Part shown: positions 1,715 through 4,267 of the stretch, piece by piece
Layout: the number at the start of each line of letters is the position of its first letter
How positions within the stretch are numbered: position 1 is the first letter of the stretch
Assembly: GCA_042408215.1 (NCBI GenBank)
Contig: JAYFMW010000006.1
Location: 672,001-736,000, forward strand
Reading direction: 5' to 3'
DNA from: Microcoleus sp.
GTDB taxonomy: Bacteria > Cyanobacteriota > Cyanobacteriia > Cyanobacteriales > Microcoleaceae
Length of the DNA: 64,000 nucleotides
Position numbers and translations under genes: made by a program
The notes under the pieces: generated by a model
What the model saw: the letters and a program-made list of their open reading frames with translations, nothing else
What the model was told of the DNA's origin: nothing
The model's database searches: none

Positions 1715-2134
1715 CTTCGCAACTAGGATTGGTTGCAGAAATTTGAGTTGTAAAAGTTGGTCTTTGGAGTTTTCCAGAGGTTGAAAAGTTAGAGCTTTTG
1801 GCACAAAAGAAGGCTCTGATTTTTTAATTTCTGTTTGCGGTGTCGGGGGGATCGAAGCCTCCTTCGATTCCGCATTAATAGAAGACTTCGAAAAGCTTTG
1901 TCTTAGCTATGTATTTCTAGCAAGTGACAAGCTAACTTGCTAGACAGTGCCGTAACCCTTCGGCTGGGGGATAGGACGATGCCTTAAAGACGTTTACTCT
2001 ATGCGGTAGAGGCGTCCCCTAAAGGCATCCCCCCAAAATTAGACTACTAGAAATCTAGTCTTTTGTCAAGAGCTATTTATGGTTGCTCTTAAACTGTCGC
2101 ATTAATAGAAGACTTCCACTAATTTTGTTTTAGC
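1715..2134 (+). ncRNA. Candidate structured non-coding RNA between the WYL gene and the CRISPR trailer
   Basis: About ten consecutive stems, including a multi-stem domain closed by GACAGT(1943-1948)/ACTGTC(2093-2098). Wobble pairs read as G-U on the + strand. No long ORF with a start codon. Confidence 0.5.
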
Positions 2135-4267
2135 GTTTCCATTCAATTAGTTTCCCCAGCGAGTGGGGAGGCTGGAATGTGCTTCCTGAATTGAAGAAAT
2201 TTTACTCAAGTGCTGAGTTTCCATTCAATTAGTTTCCCCAGCGAGTGGGGAGTGCCCAACGCCTGGGAGATACCAGGGGGTGGGGTAGATGATGGGTTTC
2301 CATTCAATTAGTTTCCCCAACGAGTGGGGAGTAATTGTCGCCCGATCGTCCCTGCGGTTTGAGAAAGTCAACACGTCGGCGGTTTCCATTCAATTAGTTT
2401 CCCCAACGAGTGGGGAGCGCTGAAATCCCCACATTTAAGGCTGCTGTTGAAGTTTCCATTCAATTAGTTTCCCCAACGAGTGGGGAGGTTTAGACTGTTC
2501 AAATTACCTCCTGTTTTAAAATTTCGTTTCCATTCAATTAGTTTCCCCAACGAGTGGGGAGAACAGCAAAAATGTACAACCTAGACACTGACCTATTCAG
2601 TGAGGTTTCCATTCAATTAGTTTCCCCAACGAGTGGGGAGCGCCCCGTACTGGTATTACAGCAATTCTCCTGAGAAGTTTCCATTCAATTAGTTTCCCCA
2701 ACGAGTGGGGAGCCACATGCAGAAGAGCATGAACGCTAGTGTATGGAAGAAGATCCTAGCCTATGTTTCCATTCAATTAGTTTCCCCAACGAGTGGGGAG
2801 ACGATGCGCTTCACACTTGACTGGGCACAAGTTCCTACTGTCCAACGTTTCCATTCAATTAGTTTCCCCAACGAGTGGGGAGAAGCAAGAGGTTGCGCTC
2901 TACGAAGAGAGTCACGAGAACAGCCGAGTTTCCATTCAATTAGTTTCCCCAACGAGTGGGGAGTTGACTGCTACCGAATAGAACATTGTTTTGATGACGC
3001 GCCGGAGTTTCCATTCAATTAGTTTCCCCAACGAGTGGGGAGAAACTTAGGGCAAATATTAGGAATGAGTCAAGGCGAGTTTCCATTCAATTAGTTTCCC
3101 CAACGAGTGGGGAGATAACATCTGCGTGAAGTAGAGCTCCACGATGCTCACCAGTTTCCATTCAATTAGTTTCCCCAACGAGTGGGGAGAAGGAGCGTGA
3201 AGAGGCACTGAAGCGTGCAATGCAAGACGGGCAGAGTTTCCATTCAATTAGTTTCCCCAACGAGTGGGGAGTATCTCAAATCAAAGAAAATCTGATGAAG
3301 GCTTTCGGAGTAGTCACCGAGTTTCCATTCAATTAGTTTCCCCAACGAGTGGGGAGCTCACTGACATTCAAGCAAGAACTATTTGAGCAGCAAGTGTTGG
3401 GTTTCCATTCAATTAGTTTCCCCAACGAGTGGGGAGTGACCAAAAGATTCCTGTCTACCTTATCGGGGGTAAATTCTAAGTTTCCATTCAATTAGTTTCC
3501 CCAACGAGTGGGGAGCAATGATGAAGCCCTAGTAATGAAAGAGATCAGCAAACCAGAGTTTCCATTCAATTAGTTTCCCCAACGAGTGGGGAGTGATCAA
3601 CGCTTACTACCTAGCTTATGAAGCAGGATTGGTAGAGTTTCCATTCAATTAGTTTCCCCAACGAGTGGGGAGATCGGGGAACCTTGCGCGGGCCACGGCG
3701 CGATCGCCTCAAGTTTCCATTCAATTAGTTTCCCCAACGAGTGGGGAGACTTTACCTTGGAAGACCCACTTGGCGTTATCATCGTTTCCATTCAATTAGT
3801 TTCCCCAACGAGTGGGGAGACCATAGAGATCCGCATCTTTGCGGGTACCAATGAGTTTCCATTCAATTAGTTTCCCCAACGAGTGGGGAGAAGAACCTTA
3901 GCTATAGAACCGTGTCAAACACATAGTTTCCATTCAATTAGTTTCCCCAACGAGTGGGGAGTGCAACATCGTGGCATTGCTTCTGTGAAAAGCATCGGGT
4001 TTCCATTCAATTAGTTTCCCCAACGAGTGGGGAGACGTGATGATTGGGAGGCCTATGTTATCGATGTGGCTGGTTTCCATTCAATTAGTTTCCCCAACGA
4101 GTGGGGAGAAGCGTGAGGTACTAGAGGAAACAGGACTCTTAGTAGAAGAGTTTCCATTCAATTAGTTTCCCCAACGAGTGGGGAGCTGGTGCAGATACCG
4201 CTGCCTTGTGGAAAGAGATGCTAGATGGGAAGTTTCCATTCAATTAGTTTCCCCAACGAGTGGGGAG
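2135..4267 (-). CRISPR. CRISPR array, 28 repeats of 36 nt and 27 spacers (34-52 nt), type III-B-like
   Basis: Repeat (+) GTTTCCATTCAATTAGTTTCCCCAACGAGTGGGGAG. Its reverse complement ends in ATGGAAAC and resembles the Synechocystis 6803 CRISPR3 (III-B variant) repeat. The two leftmost repeats carry a variant base, marking the trailer end. Confidence 0.98.

What the first reader, a model, noticed from the sequence alone, without database searches (positions are those of the whole stretch)
1871..2170. Sequence after the terminal CRISPR repeat looks like a built-in guide aimed at a site 227 bp away, with mismatches at positions 6, 12 and 18
Seen: the 37 nt directly following the last repeat in transcript orientation (2098-2134; guide GCTAAAACAAAATTAGTGGAAGTCTTCTATTAATGCG) align without gaps to 1871-1907 at 31/37. 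The similarity begins exactly at the repeat boundary. Mismatches fall at guide positions 6, 12, 13, 15, 16 and 18; position 13 would be a U-G wobble against a + strand RNA. The target 3' flank (TATGTATT) is not complementary to the repeat tag. Known: in class 1 Cas7/Cmr4/Csm3 backbones every sixth guide base is flipped out and unpaired, type III complexes bind RNA, and type I loci have crRNA-like self-guides (CreA/CreR). Inference: the trailer repeat yields a dedicated crRNA that directs the type III complex to a neighbouring + strand RNA. This could be an addiction module (silencing a toxic RNA), CRISPR-guided RNA maturation, or an inducible self-trigger of Cas10 signalling. I know of no described type III module with this layout.
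Basis: partly seen in the sequence, partly recalled or inferred. Interest (0 to 1): 0.88.

Follow-up and report, generated by a model that had tools for sequence, protein, structure and literature searches.

The report
Built-in self-guide at CRISPR array end
The last repeat of a cyanobacterial type III CRISPR array is followed by a fixed 37-base guide whose matching site lies 227 bases away, and the two have changed together across several cyanobacterial families in the pattern expected of a guide and its RNA target, which points to a CRISPR system aimed at one of the cell's own RNAs.

Summary
B (2098-2134) abuts the terminal repeat of a minus-strand type III-B array and matches A (1871-1907) at 31 of 37 bases, without gaps. 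About 1.4e-6 such matches are expected by chance in this genome.

The pair belongs to a conserved ~470-bp cassette at array ends. I found it in 23 of 144 genomes of the family and in six genomes of two other families.

A and B evolve in concert. Within-genome identity reaches 34 of 37, against 28-30 for the same copy compared between lineages.

In 21 distinct pairs, 73 of 89 mismatch cells fall at every sixth guide base, in guide bases 13-17, or at base 37. Only 16 fall in the five other pairing segments. This is the tolerance map published for a Cmr complex. The flank of A does not pair with the repeat tag.

The locus encodes a short Cas10 with GGDD, Cmr3-6, a CARF-HEPN Csx1, Csx18, Cas1 and Cas2. 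No Cas6 was found.

My reading is a hard-wired type III self-guide and its target. Two points are open:
- No plus-strand RNA over A has been shown.
- The only conserved promoter-like site between B and A points the other way.

The function (self-trigger, tonic signal or guard) is inferred.

The parts
2098..2134 (-). B: hard-wired 37-nt guide, directly 3' of the terminal repeat in the transcript
   Evidence: It abuts a repeat in all 27 loci and the 8 loci. It is nearly invariant within Microcoleus.
1871..1907 (+). A: site complementary to the B guide, the proposed RNA target
   Evidence: 31 of 37 in this genome. It co-varies with B in distant lineages. Mismatches cluster at every sixth base and in bases 13-17.
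1908..1915 (+). 3' flank of A, not complementary to the repeat tag
   Evidence: Read: 2 of 8 positions could pair. The flanks in other lineages also differ from the repeat start.
2135..2170 (-). Terminal CRISPR repeat, a one-base variant of the consensus
2135..4267 (-). CRISPR array: 28 repeats of 36 nt, spacers about 35-52 nt
4268..4560 (-). Leader, shared with the two other arrays of this repeat family
1848..1871 (+). Hairpin hp1, directly 5' of A on the plus strand. It is conserved, with one compensatory change in L289.
   Evidence: It folds better on the plus strand in 7 of 7 lineages.
1780..1828 (+). T2: long hairpin plus T-run, a terminator-like element of the cassette
   Evidence: It has many G-U pairs on the plus strand only. 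It folds better on the plus strand in 6 of 7 lineages. The scan tool lists it in L292.
1677..1702 (+). T1: intrinsic terminator-like hairpin plus T-run at the left end of the cassette
   Evidence: It is conserved in relatives.
1703..1738 (.). Decayed remnant of a CRISPR repeat. The same position holds a clean partial or nearly whole repeat in other lineages.
   Evidence: In this genome the match to the repeat is no better than in shuffles.
2041..2069 (-). Conserved sigma-70-like promoter-like site pointing from B towards A
   Evidence: The first hexamer is invariant in the 22 rows. The scan tool lists the site in L035, L036, L052 and L292, 4 of 7 loci scanned. In this window the second hexamer matches only 3 of 6 (my reading).
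1916..2033 (.). Conserved non-coding spacer between A and B, with hairpins. The one at 1995-2012 is invariant in 22 rows.
   Evidence: No frame of 20 aa or more. No Rfam family.
284..1462 (+). WYL-domain regulator gene. It matches a PADLOC model described as CARF+WYL.
   Evidence: Homologues occur in 21 of the 23 module-bearing genomes of the family.
1..32 (-). Start of the short cas10 gene (528 aa, GGDD at 316). The cmr operon continues left of the window.

Best explanation
The terminal repeat of this Cas6-less type III-B array, together with the 37 bases after it, makes a dedicated crRNA. The Cmr backbone holds this guide, and it pairs with a plus-strand RNA across A, 227 bases away in the same conserved end cassette.

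Selection keeps guide bases 1-5, 7-11 and 19-35 complementary. It ignores every sixth base, which is flipped out by Cmr4, and the third segment (bases 13-17). Because the flank of A does not pair with the repeat tag, the bound RNA would count as non-self. It would be cut at 6-base steps, and Cas10 (GGDD) would make cyclic oligoadenylate for the CARF-HEPN Csx1 and perhaps the CARF-WYL regulator.

Two plus-strand terminators upstream of A, and an opposing promoter-like site, would keep this target scarce. The pair would then act as a conditional self-trigger or a low tonic signal.

Shown: the pair, its conservation, its co-variation, the 6-base pattern and the gene set. Inferred: the mature trailer crRNA, the plus-strand RNA, the cleavage, the signalling and the purpose.
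For: 1. B abuts a repeat in all 27 loci and in 8 more. In one complete genome only a lone repeat plus B, the spacer region and A remain.

2. The cassette is found in 23 of 144 family genomes. In an order-wide sample, 13 of 401 genomes hold it, in three families. Neighbouring spacers all differ.

3. Concerted change: within-genome A-B identity is 34 of 37 in L037 and L038, against 28-30 for A-A or B-B compared with the window. Genus g75 pairs differ from Microcoleus at many sites, yet differ from each other by at most 1 mismatch and a 1-base indel.

4. In L038, both copies carry derived changes at guide positions 7, 20, 23 and 24. The old mismatches at 6 and 12 stay, right beside position 7.

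5. Across 21 distinct pairs, 73 mismatch cells fall at every sixth base, bases 13-17 or base 37 (12 positions). Only 16 fall in the other 25 positions. A lineage-weighted permutation gave p of about 1.3e-4.

6. Mismatches at 6 and 24 arose more than once. At 6 the letters are opposite in L289. Position 24 is mismatched in L023, L287, L291 and L036/L175.

7. This is the published Cmr rule: segments 1-5, 7-11 and so on, every sixth base unpaired, segments 1-2 needed for cOA, segment 3 of minor effect, and the seed in segment 4 (PMC8376896, passages).

8. Fraying at 36-37 fits guides of up to about 35 bases in the Synechocystis III-Bv system (PMC12464536, passages).

9. The locus holds Cas10 with GGDD, Cmr3-6, Csx1, Csx18, Cas1 and Cas2. 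No Cas6 scores above the cut-off in the genome.

10. The hairpin next to A, and T2, fold better on the plus strand in 7 and 6 of 7 lineages. The plus strand of 1846-2068 folds at z -5.0, the minus strand at z -3.2.
Against: 1. No strand-resolved RNA evidence exists. RNA-library contigs cover 1459-2169 in two runs and 1695-2116 in pieces in a third. They carry no strand and may include DNA.

2. No plus-strand promoter-like site lies near A in any of 7 loci scanned. Two plus-strand terminators lie upstream of A.

3. The only conserved promoter-like site in the cassette points from B towards A. The most obvious transcript over A would therefore have the same sense as the guide and could not be its target.

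4. Outside T1 and T2, pair columns that vary in a plus-strand-only way outnumber minus-strand-only ones by only 11 to 7.

5. The lineages are related, so the counts and the p-value overstate independence. The score table was compiled by hand and held one wrong entry (11 instead of 12 for L035), which worked against the pattern.

6. Constant activation of Csx1 by a self-target should be harmful.

7. Only about 60% of related cmr loci carry the cassette.
Confidence: 0.55

Rival explanations
1. A duplicated terminal spacer kept alike by gene conversion, with no function. Under this view A and B are two copies of one old spacer inside a decayed array end, and recombination homogenises them now and then.
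For: The cassette sits between two repeats, like an oversized last spacer. Spacer-repeat duplications are common (recalled). The whole cassette is duplicated in tandem in G034 and G135. In genus g75 the two copies are almost identical.
Against: Conversion does not explain why the differences sit at every sixth base and in bases 13-17 (73 against 16 cells; p of about 1.3e-4). In L038, co-varied positions flank retained mismatches, so conversion tracts would have to be 5 bases or shorter. The longest perfect stretch is only 19 bases, and no flanking homology exists. Direct repeats should more often delete the 190 bases between them, yet that stretch is conserved.
Confidence: 0.15
2. Both copies act on the minus strand. 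B is a crRNA guide. A lies in a separate small RNA driven by the conserved internal promoter-like site. The two stay alike because both pair with a third RNA, from a mobile element or the host, or bind one factor.
For: A conserved promoter-like site with a perfect first hexamer points from B towards A. The scan tool finds it in 4 of 7 loci, and it is followed by the two-way hairpin T2. A shared external target would also leave every sixth base free.
Against: A has no repeat or tag on its 5' side in the minus sense in any lineage, so it could not load into Cmr. No third site exists in the genome at up to 10 mismatches. Phage records give only chance-level matches, with best E-value 6, and plasmids none. 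T2 and the hairpin beside A fold clearly worse on the minus strand.
Confidence: 0.2
3. A and B are two binding sites on DNA for one protein, for example the neighbouring WYL regulator, and they co-evolve with it.
For: A WYL regulator gene lies beside the cassette in this genome and in G008. Homologues occur in 21 of 23 cassette-bearing genomes. The two sites share a 19-base identical core.
Against: A 6-base period does not fit the 10-11-base turn of DNA (established knowledge). The match starts exactly at the repeat boundary and spans one guide length. In most loci the regulator gene is not adjacent, and two cassette-bearing genomes gave no homologue with this query.
Confidence: 0.05

Closest known systems
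CreA / CreR crRNA-like regulators of type I and V-A systems (CreTA, CreR, CrePA)
   Same: A repeat-derived handle with a fixed, vertically inherited guide aimed at the cell's own DNA region near the CRISPR-cas locus. It is conserved among relatives and is not used for immunity (PMC9458426 abstract; PMC12737573 passages).
   Different: Those guides direct DNA-binding effectors to promoters, with short partial matches that avoid cleavage. Here the system is type III, which targets RNA. The match runs the whole guide apart from the unpaired positions. The guide uses the array's own last repeat instead of a stand-alone mini-array, and the target flank would license Cas10 signalling. No toxin gene was identified.
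Synechocystis sp. PCC 6803 CRISPR3, type III-Bv
   Same: A Cmr effector with Csx18, Cas1 and Cas2 and no Cas6. The repeat has a stem-loop at its start and an AU-rich single-stranded tail. The crRNA guide is at most about 35 bases (PMC12464536 passages).
   Different: The passages I read mention no conserved post-terminal guide or self-target for that system; the word 'trailer' does not occur in that paper. Processing by RNase E here is only inferred.
Accidental self-targeting spacers and degraded mini-arrays near type III loci
   Same: A repeat-adjacent sequence that matches the host genome, close to a type III array.
   Different: A survey preprint judged type III mini-arrays to be degraded and found no conserved positions and no targets (10.1101/2023.03.03.530964, passages). 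This pair is conserved across three families and co-varies.
Privatised or delocalised homing guides of CRISPR-associated transposons
   Same: A special guide kept at the far end of, or beside, an array. It carries tolerated mismatches and an atypical repeat, and it is aimed at a chromosomal site (10.1101/2021.02.06.429022, abstract only).
   Different: No transposon genes are present here. The effector is type III, and the target lies 190-340 bases away inside the same cassette.

Membership tests
Type III-B variant (III-Bv, Cas6-less Cmr) CRISPR-Cas locus | Cas10/Cmr2 with a cyclase palm, plus Cmr3, Cmr4, Cmr5 and Cmr6 | tested here: met
   Cas10 is 528 aa with GGDD at 316 and no HD motif found.
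Type III-B variant (III-Bv, Cas6-less Cmr) CRISPR-Cas locus | No Cas6; Csx18 next to Cas1-Cas2 | tested here: met
   No locus ORF hits Cas6. The best genome-wide match to PF01881 scores 20.7 bits, below the cut-off of 23 (one Pfam model only). Csx18 is found.
Type III-B variant (III-Bv, Cas6-less Cmr) CRISPR-Cas locus | crRNA maturation by host RNase E / RNase J, giving a 13-14-nt handle | not testable with these tools
   Only the repeat layout matches the description in PMC12464536.
crRNA-like self-regulators (CreA/CreR kind) | A repeat-derived handle joined to a fixed guide that is conserved among relatives | tested here: met
crRNA-like self-regulators (CreA/CreR kind) | A cognate host target near the locus that co-evolves with the guide | tested here: met
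crRNA-like self-regulators (CreA/CreR kind) | Partial match to a promoter, read by a DNA-binding effector, giving repression without cleavage | tested here: not met
   The effector genes are type III. The match spans the whole guide. No promoter-like site overlaps A.
crRNA-like self-regulators (CreA/CreR kind) | An adjacent toxin gene (creT or creP) in the CreTA/CrePA forms | tested here: inconclusive
   No frame of 20 aa or more lies between A and B. The 23-aa frame over A is broken by indels in relatives. A conserved three-codon frame sits in the 1995-2012 hairpin but is missing in L288. Toxicity cannot be tested here.
Type III crRNA-target RNA duplex in a Cas7 backbone | Every sixth guide base free of pairing constraint, counted from the tag | tested here: met
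   The rule is taken from PMC8376896.
Type III crRNA-target RNA duplex in a Cas7 backbone | The target is an RNA of opposite sense to the crRNA | tested here: inconclusive
   Contigs from RNA libraries cover A but carry no strand. Fold asymmetry favours the plus strand. Promoter scans favour the minus strand.
Neutral remnant of a CRISPR array end | Copies decay independently and are not conserved beyond close relatives | tested here: not met

The most novel reading that the evidence does not exclude
The cassette is a built-in activating target for type III signalling. The cell keeps one crRNA and one matching self RNA, held silent by two terminators and an opposing promoter. Read-through or loss of that control, for example during infection, or a steady leak, makes Cmr produce cyclic oligoadenylate without any foreign sequence. 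That would either trip Csx1-mediated arrest or set the level of the CARF-WYL regulator. It would be the first type III counterpart of the crRNA-like self-guides, working through RNA recognition and a second messenger.
Probability: 0.3. Interest if true: 0.92.

Novelty: new variant of a known kind. Interest (0 to 1): 0.8.

Why it matters
Hard-wired self-guides are known for DNA-binding CRISPR effectors (type I and V-A; type II is recalled). There they regulate cas genes or guard the locus.

For type III, a published survey found only decayed mini-arrays without targets. My library searches found no described case (I saw listings and abstracts only, apart from the passages cited).

A conserved, co-evolving guide-target pair would show that type III systems also carry self-directed guides. 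The evolutionary record itself reads out the Cmr pairing rules: every sixth base and segment 3 are free, while segments 1-2 and 4-6 are fixed. It would also give a natural, testable case of how a signalling CRISPR system lives with, or makes use of, an activating self-target.

Tried and rejected
1. Rfam: no family in 1700-2134. The best match nearby is a miRNA model over T2 at E 0.21.

2. A as the 3' UTR of the WYL gene: rejected. The left-flanking genes differ among loci, and the WYL gene is adjacent to the cassette only in G000 and G008.

3. The hairpin at 2040-2065 as the terminator of a plus-strand RNA: rejected. It does not fold in the other lineages.

4. A second tag or decayed repeat directly 5' of A on the minus strand: none seen.

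5. A peptide or CreT-like frame. There is no frame of 20 aa or more between A and B. The 23-aa frame at 1835-1906 is not kept in relatives.

6. Other sites for the guide: none in the genome at up to 10 mismatches. Phage records give 7 chance-level hits with best E-value 6. Plasmids give none.

7. Collection scans with degenerate patterns were mostly noise.
- In genome contigs, 6 of the 80 listed loci (118 stretches found) are Microcoleus-type cassettes.
- In metagenome contigs, 1 of 120 stretches is a real cassette.

8. RNA runs. All four laid runs are contigs without strand, so they show neither which strand is made nor any RNA ends. Depth differences and uncovered parts are not used as evidence.

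9. Wobble types at mismatched paired positions do not tell which copy is the guide (hand count).

10. The long-range helix between A and 2057-2066 in the plus-strand fold: compensation in L038 was not convincing (hand check).

11. Earlier findings of this scan: nothing near this place or like this sequence. One unrelated orphan-unit note had no bearing.

The identity table was then computed from the stored loci instead.
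Full report
**What is in the window.**
The plus strand carries 28 copies of a 36-nt repeat from 2135 to 4267. The array is read on the minus strand, for four reasons:
- The roughly 290 bases to its right are shared with a 62-repeat array 9 kb upstream and with a 5-repeat array on contig 20.
- In the upstream array, and in relatives, cas2 lies next to that side.
- The repeat at the left end often carries point changes.
- On the minus strand the repeat starts with a stem-loop and ends in a 19-base AU-rich tail. This is the layout described for the Cas6-less Synechocystis III-Bv repeat (PMC12464536, passages).

Left of the window start lies a minus-strand operon. It encodes a 528-aa Cas10 with GGDD and no HD motif found, Cmr3, Cmr4, Cmr5, a 583-aa Cmr6, a CARF-HEPN Csx1, Csx18, Cas1 and Cas2. 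No Cas6 scores above the cut-off anywhere in the genome with the one Pfam model tried. A WYL gene (284-1462) matches a PADLOC model described as CARF+WYL.

**The observation.**
The 37 bases that follow the last repeat in the transcript (B, 2098-2134) match A (1871-1907) at 31 of 37, without gaps. Mismatches are at guide positions 6, 12, 13, 15, 16 and 18. The match begins at the repeat boundary and ends at base 37.

About 1.4e-6 such matches are expected by chance in the genome. Neither copy has another match at up to 10 mismatches. Three other repeat-adjacent 37-mers of the genome have no partner at up to 11 mismatches. The region 1700-2134 is otherwise single-copy, holds no frame of 20 aa or more between A and B, and hits no Rfam family.

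**A conserved cassette.**
A search of the family found the whole region in 18 genomes of the same genus, including this one, and in 3 of a second genus. Parts were found in 2 more, so 23 of 144 genomes carry it. Record titles name the genus Microcoleus.

A search of 401 genomes of the order, seeded with the second genus's copy, found it in 13. These include one genome of a second family and five of a third. One metagenome contig also carries it.

Spacers differ completely between species, while the cassette is 69-95% identical. It is normally present once per genome. G120 has two copies, and G034 and G135 have a tandem partial duplicate.

The cassette always sits at the leader-distal end of an array of this repeat family. 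The genes beyond it vary. The WYL gene is adjacent only in this genome and in G008. In three genomes the array lies about 5 kb from a different Cas10 with an open frame of about 1000 aa.

In one complete genome, only a single repeat is left next to B. In several lineages a partial or almost whole repeat lies at the left end of the cassette, so the cassette occupies the place of an oversized last spacer. In this window that left repeat has decayed beyond detection.

**Co-variation.**
In distant lineages both copies carry the same derived changes.
- Within-genome A-B identity is 34 of 37 in L037 and L038. The same copy compared with the window gives 28-30.
- In genus g75 the pair differs from the Microcoleus pair at many sites and in length. 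Its two copies differ by at most one mismatch and a one-base indel.
- L038 is the most telling case. Polarised by outgroups, both copies changed at guide positions 7, 20, 23 and 24, while the old mismatches at 6 and 12 were kept. Block transfer between the copies would have erased them unless the tracts were 5 bases or shorter.

**The pattern of differences.**
Over 21 distinct pairs, 73 mismatch cells lie at every sixth guide base, in bases 13-17 or at base 37. Only 16 lie in the 25 positions of segments 1-5, 7-11, 19-23, 25-29 and 31-35. Three pairs differ only at positions 6, 12 and 18 or 36, apart from an indel.

Length changes in A fall after guide base 17 (3 bases, in two unrelated lineages), after base 19 or 20 (1 base), and at base 26 (1 base lost).

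Mismatches at 6 and 24 arose more than once:
- At 6, L289 carries the opposite letters.
- At 24, the mismatch is seen in L023, L287, L291 and L036/L175.

A permutation of lineage-weighted scores gave p of about 1.3e-4, and phase 0 of the six phases holds 14 of 29 score points. These figures overstate independence because the genomes are related. I compiled the score table by hand, and it held one wrong entry that worked against the pattern.

The pattern equals the rule measured for the Thermus Cmr complex. There, every sixth base is excluded from pairing, segments 1 and 2 are required for cOA synthesis, segment 3 mismatches have a minor effect, and the seed lies in segment 4 (PMC8376896, passages). 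Frequent mismatches at 36-37 fit a guide of at most about 35 bases, as in Synechocystis III-Bv crRNAs of 48 and 42 nt with a 13-14-nt handle.

The eight bases 3' of A do not pair with the repeat tag, here or in the other lineages. A bound RNA would therefore count as non-self.

**Which strand is made.**
This is the weak point of the reading.

Contigs from four metatranscriptome runs cover parts of the cassette. One contig in each of two runs spans 1459 to 2164 or 2169. They carry no strand, and such libraries can contain DNA.

For the plus strand:
- Two terminator-like hairpins with T-runs (1677-1702 and 1780-1828) belong to the cassette. They are built with many G-U pairs that would be mismatches on the other strand.
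- The second terminator and the hairpin directly 5' of A fold better on the plus strand in 6 and 7 of 7 lineages.
- The stretch 1846-2068 folds at -81.4 kcal/mol (z -5.0) on the plus strand, against -73.7 (z -3.2) on the minus strand.
- Outside the two terminators, however, variable pair columns favour the plus strand only 11 to 7.

For the minus strand:
- The only conserved promoter-like site lies between B and A and points towards A. Its first hexamer is invariant in 22 aligned rows.
- The scan tool lists the site in 4 of 7 loci scanned. It lists no plus-strand site near A in any of them.

An RNA from that site would have the sense of the guide. It could not be the guide's target, but it could mask or interfere with a plus-strand RNA.

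**Reading.**
I think the pair is a hard-wired type III guide and its self target (confidence 0.55). Only pairing inside a Cas7-type backbone explains together:
- the exact start at the tag;
- the guide-length span;
- the co-variation;
- the 6-base phase;
- the free third segment.

Gene conversion of a duplicated spacer (0.15) explains the likeness but not the phase. A same-sense small RNA sharing an outside target with the guide (0.2) fits the promoter-like site, but A has no tag and no third site was found. Paired protein-binding sites (0.05) do not fit a 6-base period.

What the pair is for is inference. Intact segments 1-2 and 4-6 and a non-complementary flank look built to activate Cas10 rather than to be cut silently. 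The terminators upstream and the opposing promoter-like site look built to keep the target scarce. That suggests a conditional self-trigger, or a low tonic cOA signal read by Csx1 and perhaps by the CARF-WYL regulator. Homologues of that regulator occur in 21 of the 23 cassette-bearing family genomes, but it is part of these cmr loci in general. A guard module that silences a harmful RNA is not excluded.

**Comparison with what is known.**
The closest known things are the crRNA-like self-guides CreA and CreR of type I and V-A systems. This pair shares their logic, but it fails their defining mechanism of promoter binding by a DNA-binding effector with a short partial match.

A survey preprint found that mini-arrays near type III loci lack conserved positions and targets, and judged them degraded. 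My four library searches listed no paper describing a type III self-guide. I saw listings and abstracts only, apart from the passages cited, and I did not read supplements.

I therefore file the finding as a new variant of a known kind.

Noticed in passing
window 30302-30337: A lone copy of the same CRISPR repeat (a few changes) sits about 90 bases upstream of the uroporphyrinogen decarboxylase gene. Neither flanking 37-mer has any partner in the genome at up to 11 mismatches.
   Followed up: partly
L001/L002, G000 contig 6 about 657700-658083 (left of the window): The far end of the 62-repeat sister array runs into at least five tandem copies of a roughly 79-base unit with a hairpin and T-run. 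These cut into the last repeat. That array has no A/B cassette.
   Followed up: no
window 1995-2012: A hairpin invariant in 22 aligned cassettes holds a three-codon frame (Met-Arg-stop), with a purine-rich stretch about 10 bases upstream. It is missing in L288. I noted it only because CreT toxins are tiny frames; I did not test it.
   Followed up: partly
window 1463-1660: Two copies of a dispersed short palindromic element with G+C-rich ends, found at dozens of places in the genome, lie between the WYL gene and the cassette.
   Followed up: partly
window 34941-42942: A run of conflict-system genes: a DUF6932 gene with an HTH gene, a PIN-domain gene, an NB-ARC/STAND ATPase, and two genes with TOTE-system domains (DUF7017 with an S1/CSD-like domain; a TBP-like domain with a UvrD C-terminal domain).
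   Followed up: no
window 9585-12680: A 1031-aa minus-strand frame contains DNA repeats with a 294-base period (three copies, 68-76% alike).
   Followed up: no
G000 contig 30, 155275-156885: A second, larger Cas10 relative (open frame of 612 aa, about 46% identity to the one beside the window). The genome therefore holds at least two type III effector loci that might share these crRNAs.
   Followed up: no
L030, L032 (G034, G135): The whole end cassette is partly duplicated in tandem. The inner B-like copy has lost its repeat and has diverged over roughly its repeat-side third.
   Followed up: partly
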